The notes below the pieces were generated by a model that was not told the DNA's origin, made no database searches, and saw only the letters and a program-made list of their open reading frames with translations. Positions 21,938-31,039 of a stretch of 64,000 nt of DNA are shown in pieces (the stretch's first letter is position 1; each line of letters begins with the position of its first letter). Both the position numbers and the translations under genes were made by a program. The DNA is from an uncultured Actinomycetota bacterium (GTDB lineage: Bacteria > Actinomycetota > Actinomycetes > Actinomycetales > Dermatophilaceae), in assembly GCA_963803695.1 (NCBI GenBank), contig CAWDNY010000011.1:159504-223503 (forward strand). The letters run 5' to 3'.

Positions 21938-22576
21938 ATGCGGATCGATCACGTCTGTTATGCAGCCGGACCCGAAGGCATGAGAGCCACCGCGCTGCGG
22001 CTGGCCGAGTTGCTGCAGGTGACCCCATGCGAAGGCGGTGTCCATCCCCGCTTCGGCACACGAAACATGGTGTTGCCGCTAGCCGACGGGCGCTACCTCG
22101 AGGTCGTCGAGGTGTTGGATCACCCTGCCTCGGACAAGGCTCCGTTTGGCCAAGCCGTGCGGGCGCGGTCAGATCAGGGCGGTGGGTGGATGGCCTGGGT
22201 GGTGGCTGTCGATGACCTCTCGGACATCGAGGAACGGCTGGGGCGCGAGGCAGTCCCGGGCAATCGGCATACGCCCGAGGGCATCGAGCTCACATGGCAT
22301 CAGATCGGCATCAAATCGTTGATCGAGGACCCGCAGTTGCCGTTCTTCGTTCGCTGGGATTCACTCGAGCACCACCCGTCGAAGTTGGGCGGGGATGGGG
22401 CCAAACTGGTCGGCCTGCACATCGCCGGAGACCCGGTGAAGATCCACGAGTGGCTTGGTGTCCCGGATGTCGCGTCGTCCTGGGAGAGCGGCATTGACGT
22501 GGAGTTCGACCACTCCGATATGCACGCCCTTGAGTCCGTCGTCTTCGCGACCGCAGGCGGCACCGTCACCATCTGA
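21938..22576 (+). CDS. VOC (glyoxalase-like) family protein
   Basis: MRIDHVCYA, GGVHPRFGTRN, YLEVVEV, PFFVRW. Confidence 0.85.
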   Translation: MRIDHVCYAAGPEGMRATALRLAELLQVTPCEGGVHPRFGTRNMVLPLADGRYLEVVEVLDHPASDKAPFGQAVRARSDQGGGWMAWVVAVDDLSDIEERLGREAVPGNRHTPEGIELTWHQIGIKSLIEDPQLPFFVRWDSLEHHPSKLGGDGAKLVGLHIAGDPVKIHEWLGVPDVASSWESGIDVEFDHSDMHALESVVFATAGGTVTI

Positions 22577-22617
22577 GGCATCACGCCCGAGCAAGGCTGT
22601 CCGCTTGCAGGTTTCGC

Positions 22618-22977
22618 TCATGTGACTAGGTCAATCTGATGCGGCCCCGTTAACAGGGCCGTTCTTGAGCCAGCCTGGCCAGCGCCGAGTTGAGGTGGAT
22701 GCCAACGGGCACCAACGCCGCCTCGAGTGAGGCGAGCCCTAAATGTGATGCCGCGAGCAATCTCCTGCGTACGAAGCGCGGAGGTCAACTTTTCACAGTC
22801 CAGGCTCTCGTGGGAGGTGATGATGAAGATATCAACGAGGTCGCAGAACCGCCCGGAAGGTCTGTTGCTGTGGGTTTCGTACATCGCGGCAACTTTGTCC
22901 CTTGTCGGCGGTATGGTCGACGAGCGAATGTAGCTGTGAAAAGAACCGATAGGTGGCCGATGTTTCGCGCGGAACAT
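22618..22977 (-). pseudogene. Remnant of an AbiEii-type nucleotidyltransferase toxin
   Basis: SLVDHTADK, then a 7-nt imperfect duplication (GACAAGG/GACAAAG near 22906-22893), then DKVAAMYETH...PSGRFCDLVDI; resembles the HxADK...RxxDLxD C-terminus of actinobacterial AbiEii (from memory). Confidence 0.5.
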
Positions 22978-23046
22978 CGGCCAGAGTTGAAGGTCTGCGC
23001 TCGTTGGCTTCGATTCGAGCTAGGCACTCACCTTTCGCAAGCCTGT

Positions 23047-23781
23047 TTATGTTTTCGACGCGAGGAAGTCCGAGCCCAGTGGGCGTTGTCGGGCATAGAC
23101 GACCGTGTTATCTCGGTAGTGATTGACCCTTGAATCCCAGGCTCCTGCGCATGTGATAATTCGCAATTCGGGGTCAGTCGTGTCGCCGTACACGGTCGCG
23201 GTCGGGAATCGATCCGTGGGGTACTGCTCTACTCCATAGACCTCGAAAATGTTCTTTGAGCCATCGCTGTTGTCTATCAAGACTAAATCGCCGACCTGCA
23301 ACTCGGCCAGCCTGAAAAAGACAGACGGTGTACCCCCACGACCGTTGACGTGGCCCAGCAGGACGGCGGGGCCCGTCTCGCCGGGACTGGGAGAACCGGT
23401 GAACCAGCCGACGTGGTCATAGGACGGACCGCGCGCGGGAACCTCAAGACTTCCGTCAGCGTTCAGACCCAGCGGATCAAGTGTAGAACTGACCCCAATG
23501 TCGGGTATCGCTATTTCCGAGGGTTGGCTGTCACGCACACCCACTCCTTGGGGTGGGGTCGAGCGGGTCCCTGGTTTCGCCCCGGTATCGCCGGAAGACG
23601 AGGGAACTTCCAACGCGCGGTGATCGAGTTCAGCAGTAGCGGTTGTGGTGGCTAGCGGCGTATGTGCAGTTGTGACGGATACGCCCGCGGTCACCAGCAC
23701 GCTGACCCCCGCCGCTAGCGAGACCCAGCACGCTGCGACAGCAATCCGTCTTCGATAGCGTGTCGCGTCGGTTCTCAGCAC
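23047..23781 (-). CDS. Class F sortase
   Basis: N-terminal TM, IAIPDIGV, LGLNADGSLEVP, VGWFTGSPSPGETGPAVLLGHVN (His), ELRIITCAG (Cys), YRDNTVVYA. Confidence 0.93.
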   Translation of the reverse strand: MLRTDATRYRRRIAVAACWVSLAAGVSVLVTAGVSVTTAHTPLATTTATAELDHRALEVPSSSGDTGAKPGTRSTPPQGVGVRDSQPSEIAIPDIGVSSTLDPLGLNADGSLEVPARGPSYDHVGWFTGSPSPGETGPAVLLGHVNGRGGTPSVFFRLAELQVGDLVLIDNSDGSKNIFEVYGVEQYPTDRFPTATVYGDTTDPELRIITCAGAWDSRVNHYRDNTVVYARQRPLGSDFLASKT

Positions 23782-23782
23782 C

Positions 23783-23989
23783 TCAGCCTGTTCCCGTCTG
23801 CCTACGGGAACGGCCCAGGGCCAAACCCCCGAGCCCCAGGCTCATCAACAGTGCGCCGACGACAAACGGGAACGGACTGATTCCCGTGGCGGCGGGACTG
23901 CCACCAGTTTGTACTCCCCCCACGGGAAGAGGGCTGACCTGCCCAGACCCTGAACCACCGGAGCCCGGGTTGTCAGACCCTGAACCACC
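23783..23989 (-). pseudogene. Detached 3' end of the ice-binding protein gene (linker repeat plus sorting signal)
   Basis: GGSGSDNPGSGGSGSGQVSPLPVGGVQTGG...FPFVVGALLMSLGLGGLALGRSRRQTGTG*; stop at 23783-23785 is 1 nt before the sortase start; in frame with 26453..27483 once the IS and one direct repeat are removed. Confidence 0.88.
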
Positions 23990-26452
23990 AGGACTCCTGA
24001 CATGGCGCAGGAGTCAGGGTGATGTTCGGGGTGGTTCTGGGCTTGTTTTGATTCGGTAGCGCAGGAGACGGTTGGTGCCGGGGTAGGTCGTGTTTGTGGC
24101 GTTGAGGTGTTCGCACAACTGGGCGACGGCCTTGGTCTGGCGGGTGGTGGGCATCGGGTCCAGGCTGATGGTCAGGACCCCGGGGGTGCGGGGGTCGATG
24201 TCGCCGGTGTGGGTCAGGATCTGCCGGGCCAGGGTGTAGGCCTCTTGGCCGGCGCGGGCGTAGTTGGTGTGCAACCGGATGTGCCGGGCGATGGTGGTGA
24301 TGGTGTTGAACGCGGCCATCTTGATGGCGTGGGTCAGCAGTTTCGTTTCGACGTTCAGGACCTGTTGGTGAGGGGACAGTTGTCCTAGCGGTACCCGGGT
24401 CGGGGTGTCGGTGTGGCGGGTCTGGGCGGCGGCCAAGTCGTCGTGCGCGGTAGCAAGGTCCGCGGTGATTTCGTTGTGTCTGGTGTTCGTGAGCAGCACG
24501 GTGCCGGCGCCGGCCGCGGGCGTGCGGGCAGCGAGCAGGGCCGCGTCGGTTTTGGCGCGTTCGCGGTGGACGTGGGCACGGGCCGTTTGTACGGCGTGGT
24601 GCGCGGTGCGTTTGGCCGGGTTGGGCACGGACCGGGACGGGTCATCGGGTGTGGCGGTGTAGGTGTCGTGGGAGTCCAGGTCTAGGTGTAACCGGCCGTA
24701 GCGGAAGTAGTTCTCCTGGCGCCACCGCGAACCCATCCGGTACATCACGTCCCCCGCGGTCAGGTCGGTGCGGGTGCTCAGTACGTGGGCTTGCTTGCCG
24801 GTGCGTGGGTCGCGGCGGGTGACCTGGCGCATGCCGAACGTGGCCCCTTCACCACCGGTGACGGGTAGGTCCACTCTGGTGTCGGCCAGGTCCCAGTTGT
24901 GCTCCCGTCCGGTCTGGTCGACGTGGGACACCTGCTCGAACGCGGTGATGTCGAGGTCGGGGGCGGGGTGTTTGCGCCAGGTGAGCACGTCGAACCCGTG
25001 GTGGTGCATGTGCGCGAATAGGGCCGGTGACCACCCGCCGCGGTCGAATCCGACCAGGACCCGCCGCTCGTCTCCGACGGCGTGGCGTAGTTGGGGTAGC
25101 AGGGCGCGTAGTTCCATCGCCAGCGACGCGCCCGGTTGGGCCATCACGACCAGGACGGGGTCGCCCGCGGCGTCGCATACCCAGGTCTCCACGGTGGCCG
25201 GGGCGGGGAACCGTAACCGGGACAGGTGGGTCTTAGCGATCCGCTTGGTGCCCTGGTAGGCGCGGACGTGCCCATCGACGTACAACACCACACCGTCCTC
25301 CCCGTCCTGACCGGCTTCGTTTTTGACGCCCTCCAGGTGGGTGGCGGCCATGGCGGCGATCAACTCCGGTGCCTTGTCCGTGGCGGCGAGTTGGCCCAGT
25401 TTGCGGCGGATGGTCTTGACCTCTGGTGCCCGGTCCATGCCCAGCACCCGGCCGAGCGCGGCCGGGTCGATCCGGGCTGCGCCCTCAGCCCGCGGCGCGC
25501 CTGCCAGGGTCCGGAACACGGCCTCGGTCAACACCGTGTCCAACCCGTAGAACCCGTCCGGCAACGCCCCGTACACGTGTGTGGCGCAGTCCAGCAGCCC
25601 GGTACGTTCCAGGCCGGGCAGCCCCAGGAGCAGCCCGGCCAACGGGACCCGCGCGGCCGGGGTGAACACCGGCGCGGCGTGGCCCAGCAGCCCGGCCCGG
25701 GCCAAGCCCCGCTCGGCCCACCGGGGTACCGGGTCGGCCAGCACCGGCAACAGGCCCTCCTGCTCCTTCGCGGGCTCGGGCTCGACGGGGCCGACCGCGT
25801 CGGAAGGGTCTTGCCCGTCGTTGCCGGGCTGGTCACCCTCCTCCTGCTCGACCGTGCCGGACTGCCCATCCACCTCATCGCTGTCTTGGGCACCCTGGTG
25901 CGCGGCCATTACCGTGCGCACGCTGCCCTCGCTGACCCCGACCGTGGCCGCCACGGCCCGATTCGAGCCGCCCGCGGCCTTGCCCGCAATAATGTCTGCG
26001 ACCACGTCGCCGGTCAGCTTCGAGGCCCGCTTGGGGCCCTTCTTCTCCCCGACCAGGCTCCCCACGCCCTGGCCCGCGTACGCGGTGCGCCACCGCCAGA
26101 TCGTTTGATCGGTGACTCCGAACGCCGCCGCGACCGGCCGGGTCGCGGCGATCTCAAGCTCGACCAGTTGCACCGCTGCTAACCGCCGGCACGCCTCGTC
26201 CCCAGGACCCCACGCGAAGACCACCTCACCGCGTACGTACACCTGCCCACCGGTCTCGTCCGTCACCAGCCCAGCGACGTCCCCGACCTGCACGGCCCGG
26301 GCCGGCAGCACCGGCAGCGGGGCTTGGAGGGTCATGAGACCCATCATCCCCACCCACCCAACAACACATACAACATAACTTCTATTATTACTCATAGACG
26401 GGGCAAACCCGCTGGTGACACGCCGTCAAACCACCCCTATGTCAGGAGTCCT
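23990..26452 (-). mobile_element. Insertion sequence, 2463 bp, 14-bp terminal inverted repeats, 8-bp direct repeat
   Basis: AGGACTCCTGACAT (23990-24003) / ATGTCAGGAGTCCT (26439-26452); GAACCACC at 23982-23989 and 26453-26460. Confidence 0.92.
24014..26395 (-). CDS. Large DDE transposase (IS4-superfamily-like; family not assigned; start probably 26335-26347)
   Basis: N-terminal HTHs (VAAAFGVTDQTIWRW; VAATVGVSEGSVR), YVDGH, FDRGG, RWRQENYFR. Confidence 0.9.
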   Translation of the reverse strand: MSNNRSYVVCVVGWVGMMGLMTLQAPLPVLPARAVQVGDVAGLVTDETGGQVYVRGEVVFAWGPGDEACRRLAAVQLVELEIAATRPVAAAFGVTDQTIWRWRTAYAGQGVGSLVGEKKGPKRASKLTGDVVADIIAGKAAGGSNRAVAATVGVSEGSVRTVMAAHQGAQDSDEVDGQSGTVEQEEGDQPGNDGQDPSDAVGPVEPEPAKEQEGLLPVLADPVPRWAERGLARAGLLGHAAPVFTPAARVPLAGLLLGLPGLERTGLLDCATHVYGALPDGFYGLDTVLTEAVFRTLAGAPRAEGAARIDPAALGRVLGMDRAPEVKTIRRKLGQLAATDKAPELIAAMAATHLEGVKNEAGQDGEDGVVLYVDGHVRAYQGTKRIAKTHLSRLRFPAPATVETWVCDAAGDPVLVVMAQPGASLAMELRALLPQLRHAVGDERRVLVGFDRGGWSPALFAHMHHHGFDVLTWRKHPAPDLDITAFEQVSHVDQTGREHNWDLADTRVDLPVTGGEGATFGMRQVTRRDPRTGKQAHVLSTRTDLTAGDVMYRMGSRWRQENYFRYGRLHLDLDSHDTYTATPDDPSRSVPNPAKRTAHHAVQTARAHVHRERAKTDAALLAARTPAAGAGTVLLTNTRHNEITADLATAHDDLAAAQTRHTDTPTRVPLGQLSPHQQVLNVETKLLTHAIKMAAFNTITTIARHIRLHTNYARAGQEAYTLARQILTHTGDIDPRTPGVLTISLDPMPTTRQTKAVAQLCEHLNATNTTYPGTNRLLRYRIKTSPEPPRTSP

Positions 26453-27483
26453 GAACCACCGGAGCCCGGATTGTCAGAGCCGGAACCACCAGAGCCCGGA
26501 TTGTCAGAGCCGGAACCACCAGAGCCCGGGTTGTCAGACCCTGAACCACCGGAGCCCGGGTTGTCAGACCCTGAACCACCGGAGCCCGAGTTGCCGGAAC
26601 CCGTGGTGGGAGTTGGCTCTGGAGTGGTCGGGCCAGGCGTGGTGGGAGTTGGCTCTGGAGTGGTCGGGCCAGGCGTGGTGGGAGTTGGCTCTGGAGTGGT
26701 CGGGCCAGGCGTGGTGGCGGTTGGCTCATCAGTAGTTGGTGTGGGAGCGTCCGCGCACTCGGGGGCAGAGATGGTATTGGTGTCCAGGGTGACTGCGCCA
26801 TTGCGAGCCAGGAGCCGTCCCTGAACTGTGGCTCCGGTGTCGGCGGTGATCGACGTTAGGGCGATCACGGTCCCGGCAAAAGCGCTGCCGGTGCCGATGG
26901 TGGCCGAACTGCCGACTTGCCAGTAGACGTCACAGGCGTTGGCTCCGTTGATAAACACGACGGAGCTGCTGGAGCCGGTGGTCAGCGTGCTGGCTGTCTG
27001 GAAGATGAACACCGGATCGGTTTCGTTCGCCCCGTCCAGAGTCAACTGGCCGTTGAGTTCGAGCGTGTTCCCGGTGTAAACGCCCGGGACCAAGGACTGG
27101 CCTGCGAGGTCGGCGGTCACCGTGACGTCTGTGGGTTGGCCAGCCGCATCGTTGTAGGCCGTAGCCAGGTCATCTTTCGCCATGTTCGCAACAGCGTCTG
27201 CGGCGTGAAGTTCGCCGTTCACGATACCGGGGGGAAACCCGGTGATCGCCGTGCCAGGGCTCACCCCAAGGTCGCGGCCGATGACGGATGGCCCAGTGTT
27301 GGTGACCGTCGAACCGCCAAGGATAGAGTAGGCGCCCGCTGTACCAAGACCTACCCTGACGGCAGCAGCGACGGGCCCGGTTGAGACCACTACGAGCATG
27401 GCGCTGACTACCAGCGCACCCACTCCTGCGAGTAGCCAATAAGGAAGATAGGAATTACGGCGGGTTTTGGGGCTGGATGGCAT
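26437..27483 (-). CDS. Ice-binding family protein (DUF3494), C-terminally truncated by the IS
   Basis: AAGGAG RBS then ATG 27483; signal peptide; LGTAGAYSILGGSTVTNTGPSVI, DLATAYNDAAG, LVPGVY, LTLDG, VFIFQ, VYWQVGSSATIGT, GRLLARNGAVTLDTNTI; PT- and GS-rich linker. Confidence 0.93.
   Translation of the reverse strand: MPSSPKTRRNSYLPYWLLAGVGALVVSAMLVVVSTGPVAAAVRVGLGTAGAYSILGGSTVTNTGPSVIGRDLGVSPGTAITGFPPGIVNGELHAADAVANMAKDDLATAYNDAAGQPTDVTVTADLAGQSLVPGVYTGNTLELNGQLTLDGANETDPVFIFQTASTLTTGSSSSVVFINGANACDVYWQVGSSATIGTGSAFAGTVIALTSITADTGATVQGRLLARNGAVTLDTNTISAPECADAPTPTTDEPTATTPGPTTPEPTPTTPGPTTPEPTPTTPGPTTPEPTPTTGSGNSGSGGSGSDNPGSGGSGSDNPGSGGSGSDNPGSGGSGSDNPGSGGSGLLT
26453..26595. repeat. 30-bp coding tandem repeat (GSGGSGSDNP); continues at 23952-23989 across the IS
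   Basis: gaaccacc[g/a]gagcccgg[a/g]ttgtcaga[g/c]cc[g/t], about 4.7 units right of the IS and 1.3 units left. Confidence 0.9.
26603..26717. repeat. 36-bp coding tandem repeat x3 (TTPGPTTPEPTP-type linker)
   Basis: gtggtgggagttggctctggagtggtcgggccaggc at 26603, 26639 and 26675. Confidence 0.92.
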
Positions 27484-27715
27484 TGGACTCCTTAAATAGC
27501 GAGCAGCGAATTGCTGCAACGGGTCCTAATTCAAGAAGCCGCCACGCTTGGTCCACAGTATGCACCGCCCTGAACTTCTTTCCAATATTTCTCGATCAAT
27601 GAGGGCAAATTTGAGGCTCAATCTTGATAAACCAACCAATTTCTAGACCGAAAAAAGGGACCGCGGAGGGGTAGTCGAGACGTTGGCGCGAAATTCAAAT
27701 GAGTAGTCAGTGAGT

Positions 27716-28531
27716 TCAGCTGCGAAATTCTGCTGAACCGCCGGAGGGGCCCGGTCCTAATGCCCCGGCCGCTGACGCACTGAGGTCAACGGGTTTGCAG
27801 ACCGCCGAAGGCTGACCGGCTGTCCGTCGGGATGGGCCGCCAGCGAGTGACACAGGTCGCCGCGGCTCGTTCTCGAATCGGAAGCCAACCCCTCGCACTG
27901 TGATGATGTGTTGAGGGTCGCGTGGGTCCTCATCCAGCTTGCGACGTAACAATGAAATGTGCATGTCCAAGGTCCTGGACGGCCCGCCGACGCCTCCCCA
28001 GACCTCTGCCATCAACGCTTCCCGGGTGACGACGTGGCCCTTCTCACGCAGCAACACCCGTAGCAGGTCGAATTCCATTGTTGGCAGCGAAAGTTCGTCC
28101 CCGTTGAAGAAGGCGAGACGCGCCTTCGCGTCCAAGGTGATGGGCATCTCGCTCACCCACGGAGTTTCATCGACTCGCCTAAGCAGCGCTCGCACCCGAG
28201 CTAGCAGCACCGCGACCTGGAACGGTTTAGTGACGTACGCATTTGCCCCGGCATCCAGGCCAACCACCATATCGACTTCGCCATCTCGCGCGGTGAGAAC
28301 GAGTATGGGCTCGCTGACACCGTCTTGGCGCATCCGCTGACATAGGTCCACGCCGTCCAGGTCAGGATACTTCAGGTCCACTATGATCAGGTCGTGGACC
28401 TGCCGTATCGCCCGGGTGAGTCCCACTACCCCCCGGGACTCGGTTTCCACCGCGTGGCCCTCGCGGCTTAGAACTTGAGCCAGGGGCTCAGAGAGGGCCG
28501 CGTCGTCGGTGATCAGAAATATTGAACTCAC
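27716..28531 (-). CDS. OmpR/PhoB-family response regulator (no kinase adjacent; start uncertain)
   Basis: FLITDD, IIVDLKYP, VLTAR, GLDAGANAYVTKPF, RTLDMHISLLRRKL, ITVRGVGFRFE. Confidence 0.88.
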   Translation of the reverse strand: MSSIFLITDDAALSEPLAQVLSREGHAVETESRGVVGLTRAIRQVHDLIIVDLKYPDLDGVDLCQRMRQDGVSEPILVLTARDGEVDMVVGLDAGANAYVTKPFQVAVLLARVRALLRRVDETPWVSEMPITLDAKARLAFFNGDELSLPTMEFDLLRVLLREKGHVVTREALMAEVWGGVGGPSRTLDMHISLLRRKLDEDPRDPQHIITVRGVGFRFENEPRRPVSLAGGPSRRTAGQPSAVCKPVDLSASAAGALGPGPSGGSAEFRS

Positions 28532-28807
28532 ATTTTCACGACCCATCCACGGTTGGACGAGTGACCCAACCTCTTTACAATGTACACCACGGATAACATT
28601 CCCCGGCCACAACTAGCACTGCTGTCGACCTCGGCGGCGAATGACGTCCGGCTCCGCCTGACGGTGCGCTCTGACGCGTGGAGGAACGCCATTTCTCAGC
28701 CGCACTCTTCGAGTCACGTGTGAGTTCAGGCTCGACCCTCAGCCCAACCATCGAGAAGTGACTGGATTCTTCTCAGAGGCCTTCGCGTGATGGATATCAC
28801 GTCTTTC

Positions 28808-31039
28808 CTATTCCGCGTAGCGGCGCAGCCGAAGACTATTCAGCACCACGATGATGCTGGAGGCGGCCATCGCTCCGCCGGCGATCATCGGATTCAGCAA
28901 TCCGAACGCGGCCAGGGGGATCGCCGCCGTGTTGTATCCGAACGCCCACGCCAGGTTTTGCTTGATGATCCGCAACGTATGCCGGGAGAGGCCGATGGCG
29001 GTGACGACGGAGTCGACGTCGGAGCGCATCAGCACGATGTCGGCGGACTCCATGGCGACATCGGTGCCCGATCCCATGGCCATCCCGAGGTCGGCCTGCG
29101 CGAGAGCGGCGGCGTCGTTCACGCCGTCGCCAACCATGGCCACGACCCGTCCTTGCTGCTGTAGGGCGGCCACCGCGGCGTGCTTGTCTTGGGGCAACAC
29201 GCCGGCCGTGACGTGCGCAGGCTCGATGCCGACCTGTTTGCCCACGGCTCGGGCCGTCGCCTCACTGTCACCAGTCAGCAGGTGCGGGGTCAGCCCGAGG
29301 TCGCGAAGTCCCCTGATGGCGGCAGCGCTCGTCGGGCGGGTCTCATCGGCCACCGTCAGGGCGGCGCGAGCCTGCCCGCCCCAGCCGAGCAGGACGGTGG
29401 TGCCCGGCATACCGAATGCCGTATGCAGCGCCTCTGGGACGTCGTCGAAGAGGTCTGGTTTGCCCACCGTGACCTCGGTGTCCTTGATCTTTGCGGTGGC
29501 ACCTTGGCCAGGCAGGTTGGTGAACCCACTTGCGTCGGGGACGGCCAGCGAACGGCTCTGTGCAGCGTCGACGATCGCGCGGGCGATGGGGTGCTCGGAG
29601 CCGCTCTCGACCGCCGCTGCAGCAGTCAGGGCTGCGTCTTCGGTCAGCCGGCCCGAAGTGGTGATCGCGGTCAGCGTGGCCTGGCCAGTGGTGATGGTGC
29701 CGGTCTTGTCGAGCACGACGGTGTCGACACGTCGGGTGCTCTCCAGGATCTGTGGTCCCTTGATGAGCACCCCGAGTTGCGCCCCTCGACCGGTGCCGGT
29801 CAGTAGCGCTGTCGGGGTCGCCAGGCCGAGGGCACACGGGCAGGCGATGATCAGCACTGCAACAGCGGGCTCGATGCTTTGGCCAAGGTCGTTGCCCGTC
29901 AAGAGCCACGCGATCAGCGTGAGCATTGCGATGACCAAGACGACCGGGACGAAGACGGCGGAGACGCGGTCGGCCAGCCGTTGCACGGGCGCCCGCCCGG
30001 TCTGGGCATCTTCGACCAGCCGGGTGATCTGAGCCAGGGTGGTGTCTGAGCCCACGCGAGTGGCCTCGACCGTCAGACGACCGTGGGCATTGACCGTTGC
30101 GCCGGTGACCCGGTCTCCCTTGCTGACGTCGACCGGGGCGGATTCGCCGGTGACCATGCTGGTGTCCAGGGCGCTGCTGCCGTCGATGACCACCCCGTCG
30201 GTGGCGATCTTTTCGCCTGGACGGACGACGAACCGCATACCGACCTCGAGGTCGTCAGTGGCGATGCGTTCCTCGCGCCAGGCACCACTGCGGGGATCAT
30301 TGCGCAGGATTGCGACGTCTTTGGCCCCGAGGTGCAGCAGCGAGGTCAACGCCGAGCGACCCGAGGCCTTTGCGCGGGACTCGAAATAGCGGCCGATCAG
30401 CAAGAACGAGGTGACGATCGCTGCGGTCTCGAAGTAGAGATGCCCGGTGAAACCGCTGAGCACCGCCACCACCGACCAGCCATACGCAGCGGTGACGCCG
30501 ATTGAGACCAGCGTGTCCATGGTGGAGGCGCCGTGGCGGGCGTTGATGGCTGCGGCTCGGTGGAACGGCCAGGCCGCCCACAGGTAGACCGGGGTGGTCA
30601 GGGCGAATTGCAACCACGGGTTGGCCGCGCCGGTGGCCTCACGGATCGGCGGCACCATGGCCAGGAGCAAGACGATGACGGCCAGCGTCGTGGCCACGAT
30701 GGCCCGCAGGCGCAGCGCCGCGTCGCCGATCAGGTCGTGATTCACGTGGTCGTGCTGCATCCCGTCGGCGGGCGTTTCGTCGTATGCCGCCTCGTCACGC
30801 TTCGACTGTGCTGCGACGGGTGAAGCGGTGTATCCCGTCTTGGCCACGGTGGCGAGCAGGTCCTGCACGGTGTGCGGGTCGGCATACGTGACCCGGGCCT
30901 TCTCGGTGGCGAGGTTCACCGTGGCCTCGACGCCGTCCAGCGCGTTGAGTTTCTTCTCAACCCGAGAGACGCACGAGGCGCAGGTCATCCCCTCGATGTC
31001 GAGGTCGACCCGGTGGGATTGGCTTGTAGAAGTGGTCAT
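28808..31039 (-). CDS. copA: Cu(I)-type heavy-metal P1B ATPase
   Basis: GMTCASC HMA domain, [36 protein letters not shown]. Confidence 0.93.

What the first reader, a model, noticed from the sequence alone, without database searches (positions are those of the whole stretch)
23047..27483. Ice-binding protein with a dedicated class F sortase; an IS has severed the anchor
Seen: removing 23982-26452 restores one 409-aa ORF with signal peptide, DUF3494 domain, PT/GS stalk, LPVGGVQTG, hydrophobic helix and RSRR tail. Its stop is 1 nt before the class F sortase start. Known: DUF3494 proteins bind ice; sortases anchor substrates that have a motif, a TM helix and a basic tail; class F substrates are poorly defined. 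Inference: a two-gene system that displays an ice-binding adhesin or antifreeze on the cell wall through a non-LPxTG PxGGVxTG signal. In this strain the IS converts it to a released, soluble form ending GLLT*, and may cut sortase expression. Precise excision would revert this.
Basis: partly seen in the sequence, partly recalled or inferred. Interest (0 to 1): 0.82.

Follow-up and report, generated by a model that had tools for sequence, protein, structure and literature searches.

The report
IS-split surface protein with dedicated sortase
An Ornithinimicrobium-like actinobacterium carries a two-gene cassette, an ice-binding-family surface protein and its own class F sortase, whose wall-anchoring tail has been cut off by an insertion sequence; the unusual anchoring signal is real but is the general, already database-curated signal of class F sortases.

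Summary
Deleting 2471 bp (a ~2.46-kb IS plus its target duplication) restores a 409-aa ORF. It has a signal peptide, a DUF3494 domain, a PT/GS stalk, LPVGGVQTG, a TM helix and an RSRR tail, and it ends 1 nt before a class F sortase. A near-identical MAG contig (L090) carries the uninterrupted allele.

The inferred non-LPxTG signal is strongly supported. In 64 of 74 diverse class F sortase loci, the gene just upstream ends in P-x-G-[GA]-[VAP]-x-T-G-x-G, usually followed by a helix and a basic tail. Among DUF3494 proteins, only those with this tail have an adjacent class F sortase; LPxTG-tailed ones do not.

Two qualifications apply. DUF3494 is only one of many cargo families (others include CHRD, DUF4397, Ig-like and Excalibur). 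NCBIfam already curates the signal as NF058571 "GVDTG_CTERM"; the window's tail scores below its cutoff. The searchable literature, however, still calls class F function and substrates unknown.

Ice binding rests on homology only (52.5% identity to EfcIBP). Wall anchoring, the cleavage site and any effect on sortase expression are inferred. I rate this a new member of a known kind, of moderate interest.

The parts
26437..27483 (-). The interrupted gene as it now stands: a 348-aa ORF with signal peptide, DUF3494 domain, PT stalk and 4.4 GS repeats. It reads into the IS end and stops (…GSGGSGLLT*).
27361..27483 (-). N-terminal signal peptide region (aa 1-41, MPSSPKTRRNSYLPYWLLAGVGALVVSAMLVVVSTGPVAAA). 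The start codon choice agrees with relative P0002.
   Evidence: read from the sequence
26770..27324 (-). DUF3494 / Ice_binding beta-solenoid domain (aa 54-238). It is 52.5% identical over 198 aa to EfcIBP (PDB 6EIO).
26602..26751 (-). Pro/Thr-rich stalk (aa 245-294), including three 36-bp tandem units.
26453..26601 (-). Gly/Ser stalk, upstream part: 30-bp tandem units encoding GSGGSGSDNP. The IS sits inside this array.
23990..26452 (-). Insertion sequence, about 2463-2466 bp, with 15-nt perfect terminal inverted repeats (23989-24003 / 26439-26453). It is multi-copy in the source metagenome.
24014..26395 (-). IS transposase, 793 aa: N-terminal HTH plus PF21804 Transposase_29. The only NCBIfam signal is a weak hit to IS1380, so the IS family is not assigned here.
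23982..23989 (.). Left copy of the target-site duplication GAACCACC (8 bp, or 5-6 bp depending on where the IS end is placed).
26453..26460 (.). Right copy of the target-site duplication GAACCACC.
23783..23981 (-). Severed 3' end of the DUF3494 gene: the last GS units, the sorting signal and the stop codon.
23903..23929 (-). Sorting motif LPVGGVQTG (aa 362-370). It matches the class F consensus P-x-G-G-V-x-T-G.
23813..23881 (-). C-terminal hydrophobic helix ISPFPFVVGALLMSLGLGGLALG (aa 378-400).
23786..23812 (-). Basic tail RSRRQTGTG (aa 401-409). The stop codon is at 23785-23783.
23047..23781 (-). Class F sortase, 244 aa: N-terminal membrane helix (aa ~7-31), disordered linker, catalytic domain (aa ~85-232) with His144 and Cys211. 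The GTG start lies 1 nt after the cargo's stop.

Best explanation
This is a substrate/sortase cassette of the class F type, found in an Ornithinimicrobium-like actinobacterium.

**Intact form (natural allele in L090).**
- The 409-aa precursor is exported through its N-terminal signal peptide (inferred from sequence).
- It is held in the membrane by its C-terminal helix and RSRR tail (inferred from sequence).
- It is then recognised by the co-transcribed, membrane-anchored class F sortase encoded 1 nt downstream, through the extended signal P-V-G-G-V-Q-T-G. The association is shown by comparative genomics.
- By analogy with LPXT|G sortases, Cys211 would cleave after Thr and transfer the protein to a peptidoglycan precursor (inferred, not shown).
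- The ~110-residue PT/GS stalk would then hold the DUF3494 beta-solenoid outside the wall.
- That domain is a close homologue of proven ice-binding proteins. The product is therefore plausibly a wall-tethered ice-binding or surface-binding module (homology only).

**This strain.**
- A multi-copy ~2.46-kb IS has inserted into the GS-repeat array and separated the domain and stalk from the sorting signal.
- The remaining ORF should give a secreted, unanchored protein ending GLLT (inferred).
- The sortase gene is intact. It may still be transcribed by read-through from the IS transposase gene, which has the same orientation (open).
For: - **Anatomy and IS features:**
- **IS-free allele:** L090 has an identical sorting signal and sortase junction.
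- **Same architecture in relatives:** cargo stop and sortase start 1 nt apart in L080 and L081, and abutting in L085.
- **Conserved signal in the genus:** P[VSA]GGVQTGG plus helix is present in 10 Ornithinimicrobium-type homologues.
- **Motif next to class F sortases:** 64 of 74 loci. The strict motif is in 62 of 4435 ORFs, 52 directly upstream of the sortase and the other 10 elsewhere in the same loci.
- **Match to a curated model:** 47 of 58 cargo tails match NCBIfam NF058571 GVDTG_CTERM. The window's tail matches at E 0.0015.
- **Link between tail type and sortase among DUF3494 proteins:**
- **The sortase itself:** it passes the class F cutoff, has His144 and Cys211, an AF2 model (pLDDT 80) with a sortase fold, and an N-terminal helix.
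- **The DUF3494 domain:** 52.5% identical to EfcIBP 6EIO, E 2.5e-54.
- **IS copy number:** multi-copy, with other insertion flanks in the metagenome.
Against: - No biochemical data exist for any class F sortase with this signal. The one characterised enzyme (P. acnes) is reported to use LPXTG.
- A quadruple srtF knockout in Actinoplanes had no phenotype.
- The window's tail is below the NF058571 cutoff (18.7-18.9 bits against 29).
- The canonical beta8 catalytic Arg is not conserved in this family: R223 in 20 of 78 sequences. Asn225 and Arg207 are invariant instead, so the chemistry may differ from the SrtA paradigm.
- Some class F neighbours carry the motif but no membrane helix.
- One DUF3494 protein with such a tail lacks a sortase within 3 kb (L154).
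- Nothing ties the organism to cold habitats. The runs that hold it are labelled sediment metagenome.
Confidence: 0.72

Rival explanations
1. The cassette works as described, but the DUF3494 domain is not an ice binder in this organism. It would be a generic wall-displayed beta-solenoid, such as an adhesin or a binder of another surface or polymer. This rival disputes only the cargo's function.
For: - DUF3494 proteins with sortase signals are widespread in soil and mesophilic actinobacteria such as Arthrobacter, Rhodococcus and Nocardioides.
- The window's protein scores far below the only NCBIfam ice-binding equivalog: NF045625, 89.7 bits against a cutoff of 400.
- The source runs are labelled sediment metagenome, with no indication of cold.
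Against: - The domain is 52.5% identical over the whole domain to EfcIBP (6EIO).
- It also hits many solved ice-binding proteins strongly.
- No alternative ligand is known for this fold family.
Confidence: 0.4
2. The class F enzyme is a processing enzyme with a different outcome from peptidoglycan anchoring. Possible outcomes are release by hydrolysis, ligation to another protein or polymer, or maturation of a single partner.
For: - The canonical catalytic Arg position is variable, while Asn225 and Arg207 are invariant.
- Several neighbours end 5-10 residues after the motif with no membrane helix: L013, L035, L050, L060, L068, L072, L076.
- The srtF knockouts had no wall-related phenotype.
- No class F structure or mechanism has been published.
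Against: - The window's cargo and most other cargos have the full tripartite signal of wall-sorted proteins: motif, helix and basic tail.
- T-G is nearly invariant (T in 56 of 64, G in 64 of 64), as in LPXTG.
- The long stalks make sense for spanning a wall.
Confidence: 0.2
3. The neighbouring class F sortase is not the enzyme that handles this tail. A housekeeping class E sortase elsewhere in the genome would process it, and the gene adjacency reflects something else.
For: - Class E enzymes tolerate variation at P3 (LAxTG or LPxTG) according to the literature.
- The rest of the genome is not in the window.
Against: - The motif departs from L-[PA]-x-T-G at two positions (G-V/A-x-T-G).
- It has extra conserved upstream residues (P at -7, G at -5).
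- It co-occurs tightly with an abutting class F sortase across about 75 loci. LPxTG/LAxTG-tailed DUF3494 genes have no adjacent sortase.
Confidence: 0.08
4. The IS interruption is an assembly artefact, in which a multi-copy repeat was mis-placed during assembly, and the gene is intact in the real genome.
For: - The IS is multi-copy.
- Logan contigs of the source runs break at both IS ends, so none spans either junction.
Against: - Both junctions are exact IS ends.
- The IS is flanked by a short direct duplication of a sequence that is present once in the IS-free allele.
- Removing the IS plus one duplicate restores the frame precisely. A mis-join would not create a target duplication.
Confidence: 0.05

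Closest known systems
NCBIfam NF058571 GVDTG_CTERM sorting domain, paired with NF033748 class F sortase
   Same: - The tripartite C-terminal signal (…P-x-G-G-V-x-T-G…, helix, basic tail) sits immediately upstream of a class F sortase.
- 47 of 58 such neighbours match the model.
- The window's motif fits all eight consensus positions.
   Different: - The window's tail and most other DUF3494-borne tails score 18-22 bits, below the 29-bit cutoff.
- Residue +2 after TG is Ser here rather than the usual Gly.
- I could see only the model's name. I could not see its description or any stated link to class F.
LPXTG / class A sortase paradigm (S. aureus SrtA) and LAXTG / class E sortases of actinobacteria
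   Same: - Sortase fold with catalytic His and Cys in the same order.
- N-terminal membrane anchor.
- Substrate with a motif ending in T-G, a hydrophobic helix and a basic tail.
   Different: - Positions P4/P3 are G-V (or A/P) instead of L-P (or L-A).
- There are additional conserved residues at P at -7 and G at -5.
- The arrangement is one enzyme and one adjacent cargo, rather than a housekeeping enzyme with many scattered substrates.
- The TIGR01167 LPXTG model does not hit the tail.
- The canonical beta8 Arg is not conserved.
P. acnes SrtF, the only characterised class F sortase (Di Girolamo et al. 2019, as cited in PMC8225981 and PMC13251363)
   Same: It is assigned to the same sortase class.
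   Different: - It is reported as the single housekeeping sortase, acting on LPXTG. It is not a dedicated enzyme with a GVxTG neighbour.
Tethered DUF3494 ice-binding proteins: PEP-CTERM-tailed and membrane-anchored IBPs (PMC9957290) and SfIBP_1 with an Ig-like tether (PDB 6BG8)
   Same: A DUF3494 domain is held at the cell surface through a spacer plus a C-terminal sorting or anchoring element.
   Different: - The anchor here is a Gram-positive sortase signal with its own sortase gene.
- No paper in the searchable library mentions DUF3494 together with sortase.
AMIS_11010/srtF1 and AMIS_36440/srtF4 of Actinoplanes missouriensis (PMC13251363)
   Same: The genes neighbouring class F sortases encode a signal peptide, a C-terminal helix and basic residues. 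The authors suggest they are possible substrates on the basis of gene context.
   Different: - The authors found no recognisable pentapeptide and did not pursue these genes.
- The cargo families are unknown there.
- I did not have those sequences to check for the motif.

Membership tests
Class F sortase (NCBIfam NF033748) | Score at or above the curated cutoff of the family model | tested here: met
   171.0 bits against a cutoff of 166, E 1.3e-50. Class D and E models score about 17 bits. The neighbour sortases of other DUF3494 genes also pass, at 169-196 bits.
Class F sortase (NCBIfam NF033748) | Sortase beta-barrel fold with catalytic His and Cys | tested here: met
   The AF2 model has mean pLDDT 79.9, with the catalytic domain mostly above 90. 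Foldseek top hits are all sortases (TM about 0.6, probability 1.00). His144 and Cys211 are invariant in alignment A1 and in 78/80 and 78/79 of 84 sequences.
Class F sortase (NCBIfam NF033748) | Canonical third catalytic residue (Arg on strand beta8) | tested here: inconclusive
   A short, low-confidence hhalign match to SaSrtA places invariant Asn225 opposite Arg197. R223 and R231 are each present in only 20 of 78 sequences, while R207 (in LRLITC) is present in 79 of 81.
Class F sortase (NCBIfam NF033748) | Transpeptidase activity on a defined signal | not testable with these tools
   This needs enzyme assays.
GVDTG-CTERM sorting domain (NCBIfam NF058571) | Score at or above the curated cutoff (29 bits) | tested here: not met
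   18.7-18.9 bits, E 0.0014-0.0015, covering model positions 2-42 of 44. I therefore describe the tail as a divergent relative, not as a model-defined member.
GVDTG-CTERM sorting domain (NCBIfam NF058571) | Motif P-x-G-G-V-x-T-G followed by a hydrophobic helix and a basic tail at the extreme C-terminus | tested here: met
   LPVGGVQTG is at aa 362-370, the helix at 378-400, and RSRR at 401-404. The consensus comes from 64 loci.
GVDTG-CTERM sorting domain (NCBIfam NF058571) | Encoded next to a class F sortase | tested here: met
   The stop codon lies 1 nt before the sortase start. The same arrangement is seen in L080, L081, L085 and L090.
LPXTG cell-wall anchor (TIGR01167) | L-P-x-T-G pentapeptide and a model match | tested here: not met
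   There was no TIGR01167 hit for the window's tail even at E <= 10. P4 and P3 are G-V.
DUF3494 / Ice_binding (Pfam PF11999) | Domain model match above the gathering score | tested here: met
   206.8 bits against 28.7, covering model positions 1-207 of 208.
DUF3494 / Ice_binding (Pfam PF11999) | Ice-binding activity (thermal hysteresis or recrystallisation inhibition) | not testable with these tools
   Only homology is available: 52.5% identity to EfcIBP 6EIO. The NCBIfam equivalog NF045625 is not met (89.7 bits against 400).
Bacterial insertion sequence | Terminal inverted repeats, target-site duplication, a transposase ORF, and more than one copy | tested here: met
   The terminal inverted repeats are 15 nt and perfect. 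The GAACCACC duplication is present once in the IS-free allele. The transposase matches PF21804. Depth over the IS is about 10-fold that of the flanks, with two other flanks joining.
Bacterial insertion sequence | Assignment to a named IS family | tested here: inconclusive
   NCBIfam gives only weak hits: HTH regions of IS630 and IS481, and IS1380 at E 1.9e-4. There was no tblastn match in PLSDB plasmids.

The most novel reading that the evidence does not exclude
Class F sortases as a whole could be single-cargo enzymes with three distinguishing properties:
- They read an extended P-x-G-G-V-x-T-G signal.
- They have a rearranged active site: the beta8 Arg is lost, while Asn225 and an Arg in LRLITC are invariant.
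- In a subset, they act on partners that have the motif but no membrane helix. That would imply a reaction other than classical wall anchoring.

The Ornithinimicrobium pair of alleles (IS-split in the window, intact in L090) would then be a natural anchored/unanchored contrast for testing what the class does.
Probability: 0.2. Interest if true: 0.7.

Novelty: new member of a known kind. Interest (0 to 1): 0.4.

Why it matters
**The gap in the literature.**
- Reviews and a 2026 genetic study still state that the roles, substrates and structure of class F sortases are unknown.
- That study set aside the genes next to srtF because no pentapeptide was recognised.

**What the comparison here adds.**
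- Across about 75 loci there is a simple rule: the gene abutting a class F sortase ends in P-x-G-[GA]-[VAP]-x-T-G-x-G.
- This matches a recent NCBIfam model. It turns "what do class F sortases recognise" into a direct peptide-cleavage experiment.

**For ice-binding proteins.**
- It adds a Gram-positive, sortase-based way of tethering a DUF3494 domain.
- Many such tails fall below the current annotation cutoff.

**Limits of this locus.**
- The locus itself is an ordinary IS knockout of one such cassette.
- Its practical value is the natural pair of alleles, anchored and unanchored.

Tried and rejected
- **Closest genomes missed.** It returned only 39-58%-identical loci, not the closest Ornithinimicrobium genomes. 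Close relatives were recovered through the look-up of encoding contigs instead.
- **Failed look-up.** P0012 (O. pratense) was not on record.
- **IS-free joint in the source runs.** Laying Logan contigs of the three sediment-metagenome runs showed no IS-free joint. Contigs break at the IS ends and in the repeats and drop rare variants, so this says nothing about absence.
- **IS family.** The tblastn search against PLSDB found nothing. NCBIfam gave only weak hits. I ran no further search on this.
- **Solved class F structure.** None was found by sequence or by fold.
- **Promoters and terminators.** The scan found no sigma-70-like promoter and only chance-level terminator-like sites, so it does not settle whether the sortase is expressed.
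- **Literature.** Searches for DUF3494 with sortase, for GVDTG, for class F sortase(s), and for SrtF found no description of the signal.
- **"Dedicated to ice-binding proteins" rejected.** Only 4 of 79 class F loci carry DUF3494.
Full report
**1. What is in the window**

All genes below are on the minus strand.

- An ORF starts at ATG 27483. It encodes a signal peptide, a DUF3494/Ice_binding domain (PF11999, aa 54-238, E 3.8e-61), a Pro/Thr stalk and Gly/Ser decapeptide repeats. It then runs into foreign sequence and stops (…GSGGSGLLT*, 348 aa).
- A short ORF lies 2.5 kb downstream on the same strand. It encodes the rest of the Gly/Ser repeats, QVSPLPVGGVQTGGSPAATG, a 23-residue hydrophobic helix and RSRRQTGTG*.
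- One nucleotide after its stop, a GTG opens a 244-aa protein. This protein scores 171.0 bits on NCBIfam class_F_sortase (cutoff 166).

**2. The interruption is an insertion sequence**

- The insert has perfect 15-nt terminal inverted repeats (23989-24003 / 26439-26453).
- It is bracketed by GAACCACC on both sides.
- It carries a 793-aa ORF with N-terminal HTH motifs and Pfam PF21804 Transposase_29 (E 5.8e-49).
- In Logan contigs of a sediment-metagenome run that holds this DNA, word depth is ~45-50 over the insert and ~4-6 over the flanking genes. Two contigs join the left IS end to other sequences. The element is therefore multi-copy and mobile.
- Those joins start at 23987/23988, so the exact ends are uncertain by 1-3 nt. 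The element is 2463-2466 bp and the duplication 5-8 bp.
- I could not place it in a named IS family. There are only weak NCBIfam hits, the best to the DDE region of IS1380, and no plasmid match.

**3. An uninterrupted allele exists**

- The closest sortase in the protein collection (P0121, 96% identical) lies on a 1854-bp contig of an Ornithinimicrobium MAG: L090, GCA_049791055.1, JBAQZN010000379.1.
- This contig aligns to window 22300-23981 at about 98% identity. It parts from the window exactly at the IS end.
- Its reading frame runs without a break from the end of the DUF3494 domain, through a shorter stalk, into an identical QVSPLPVGGVQTGGSPAATGISPFPFVVGALLMSLGLGGLALGRSRRQTGTG*. The stalk has two PT units instead of three and one GSGGSGSDNP unit instead of five. 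One nucleotide later comes the GTG of the sortase.
- GGTGGTTC, the complement of GAACCACC, occurs once per repeat unit there. The two copies flanking the IS in the window are therefore a target duplication.

**4. Who the relatives are**

- The nearest homologues of the reconstructed protein (76-80% identity over the domain) are "ice-binding family proteins" of Ornithinimicrobium species.
- Ten of them share the same layout and a conserved P-[VSA]-G-G-V-Q-T-G-G followed by a helix.
- In L080 and L081 the sortase gene starts 1 nt after the cargo's stop.

**5. Is PxGGVxTG a sortase signal?**

*Survey from the sortase side.* I scanned one genome per species with an alignment of class F sortases. 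This gave 79 loci from many actinobacterial families, 39-58% identical to the window's enzyme.

- Only 4 of the 79 have a DUF3494 gene upstream.
- Of the 74 loci with readable upstream DNA, 64 have an upstream gene on the same strand, abutting or overlapping the sortase, that ends in a motif with this consensus: P (64/64) - x - G (58) - G/A (42/18) - V/A/P (34/15/13) - x - T (56) - G (64) - x - G (53). A hydrophobic stretch and Arg-rich tail usually follow.
- The strict pattern P.G[GA][VAP].TG within the last 75 residues occurs in 62 of 4435 six-frame ORFs of at least 90 aa in these loci. 52 of these are directly upstream of the sortase. The other 10 look like additional substrates in the same loci.

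*Survey from the cargo side.*

- DUF3494 proteins with such tails have a class F sortase immediately downstream. Examples of the tails are IPAGNPPTG, RPRGGVDTG, PNGGVETG, PAGFPATG and PRGAPGTG. The loci are L082/83, L085, L042, L049, L078, L099, L114, L135, L144 and L156.
- DUF3494 proteins with LPTTG, LANTG and about ten other classical tails have none.
- There are two exceptions with a similar tail and no sortase nearby. L084 has a group II intron reverse transcriptase downstream, and L154 has nothing.

This is strong comparative evidence that the motif is the cognate signal of the adjacent class F enzyme.

**6. It is general, and already curated**

- Cargo next to class F sortases includes CHRD, DUF4397, MG2/Ig-like and Excalibur domains, as well as proteins with no Pfam match. 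DUF3494 is one passenger among many.
- NCBIfam release 20 contains NF058571 "GVDTG_CTERM, GVDTG sorting domain-containing protein". 47 of 58 cargo tails match it at E <= 0.01.
- The window's tail matches at E 0.0015 but scores 18.7-18.9 bits against a cutoff of 29. Most other DUF3494-borne tails score 18-22 bits, although the Rhodococcus one (L042) reaches 37.8 bits. Automatic annotation would therefore miss most of them.
- I could see only the model's name, not its description.
- In the searchable literature I found nothing on this signal.
- A 2024 review says SrtF function is unclear and no structure is known.
- A 2026 mBio paper on Actinoplanes found no phenotype for a quadruple srtF mutant. 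It noted that the neighbours of srtF1 and srtF4 have a signal peptide, a helix and basic residues but "no recognisable pentapeptide". It added that they may nevertheless be substrates.

**7. How it most likely works**

*Shown:*
- the gene order;
- the conserved motif and its linkage to the sortase;
- the presence of His144 and Cys211;
- an N-terminal helix in the sortase;
- a sortase fold in the AF2 model (pLDDT 80; Foldseek top hits all sortases, TM ~0.6).

*Inferred by analogy with LPXTG systems:*
- Sec export;
- retention by the helix and RSRR;
- cleavage after Thr368 and transfer to a peptidoglycan precursor;
- the ~110-residue stalk spanning the wall.

*Inferred for this strain:*
- The truncated product lacks the signal and should be released.
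- The sortase gene is intact.
- The transposase gene points the same way as the operon, and no terminator-like site on that strand lies between it and the sortase. Read-through transcription of the sortase is therefore as plausible as loss of expression.

**8. Caveats about the chemistry**

- Across 84 class F sequences, His144, Cys211, Arg207 (in LRLITC) and Asn225 are essentially invariant.
- The positions where a beta8 Arg would be expected (223, 231) hold Arg in only 20 of 78 sequences.
- A short, low-confidence profile alignment puts Asn225 opposite SrtA Arg197.
- Several neighbours carry the motif but stop 5-10 residues later without a helix.

Either point could mean that class F enzymes do not all perform textbook wall anchoring.

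**9. Ice binding**

- The domain is 52.5% identical over 198 residues to EfcIBP (6EIO), and it matches many solved ice-binding proteins.
- That is good homology but not a test.
- The protein fails the only NCBIfam ice-binding equivalog.
- The family is common in soil actinobacteria.
- The runs that hold this DNA are labelled only as sediment metagenome.

**10. Verdict**

- This is a new member of a known, database-curated kind.
- The locus itself is an ordinary IS knockout.
- The wider pattern deserves experimental attention because the published literature has not caught up with it.

Noticed in passing
Protein hits P0040, P0044, P0045, P0048, P0059, P0072, P0081-P0083, P0091, P0094, P0098, P0103, P0105, P0113, P0114. 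Loci L088/L089, L101, L103, L108, L110, L117, L120, L123, L124, L142, L150, L157-L160, L170.: Many actinobacterial DUF3494 proteins end exactly in …[F/Y/V]-T-G-COOH (FPVTG*, PRFTG*, PPFTG*, GFTG*). They have no following helix, and the region before the end is often basic. There is no adjacent sortase (a YkuD gene lies upstream on the other strand in L088/L089), and no NCBIfam model hits these ends. This looks like a distinct, undescribed C-terminal signal.
   Followed up: partly
L013, L035, L050, L060, L068, L072, L076; also extra ORFs in L017, L019, L031, L056: Some genes next to class F sortases carry the P-x-G-x-x-x-T-G motif but stop 5-10 residues later (for example …PQGAPRTGDGSLAP*), with no membrane helix or basic tail. 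In L013, L060 and L068 the sortase ORF follows in the same frame after a single stop codon.
   Followed up: no
Window 23047-23781 (sortase residues R207, R223, N225); alignment A1 and 84 sequences from L001-L079: Asn225 (78/78) and Arg207 in LRLITC (79/81) are invariant in class F sortases. The expected beta8 Arg positions hold Arg in only about a quarter of sequences. The third catalytic residue of this class may differ from other sortases.
   Followed up: partly
Window 22600-28800: The sortase, the DUF3494 gene, the response-regulator-like ORF just upstream (27716-28612, minus strand) and the intergenic DNA have lower GC (0.57-0.64) and lower GC3 (0.64-0.72). The window as a whole has GC 0.663, and neighbouring genes have GC3 0.79-0.85. 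The cassette sits in different genomic neighbourhoods in L080 and L081. Together these point to a horizontally moved island.
   Followed up: partly
Window 26453-26751 and 23942-23981, compared with L090:90-260: The stalk repeats vary in copy number between near-identical strains: three against two PT units, and five against one GSGGSGSDNP unit. The IS target (GAACCACC) recurs in most 30-bp GS units.
   Followed up: yes
Window 23990-26452; run X1: The IS is about ten times deeper than its flanks in the sediment metagenome, with at least two other insertion flanks. A variant with a small indel cluster around 25300-25320 dominates the contigs. No NCBIfam transposase model reaches its cutoff.
   Followed up: partly
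L084:5285-7683: A DUF3494-TIG protein has a …VPGSGAPHTGEPG… tail, helix and basic end, but no adjacent sortase. A group II intron reverse transcriptase (RVT_1 + GIIM) lies just downstream, and IS110-type transposase genes lie upstream.
   Followed up: no
L002:3782-4790: The DUF3494 gene upstream of a class F sortase in this MAG is split into overlapping frames within a Pro/Glu/Ser repeat. This is a likely frameshift or a long-read error.
   Followed up: no
Window 28808-31039 (minus strand): A 743-aa ORF has an N-terminal GMTCASC metal-binding motif and the look of a copper-type P-type ATPase. This is read from the translation only and was not checked with a family search.
   Followed up: no
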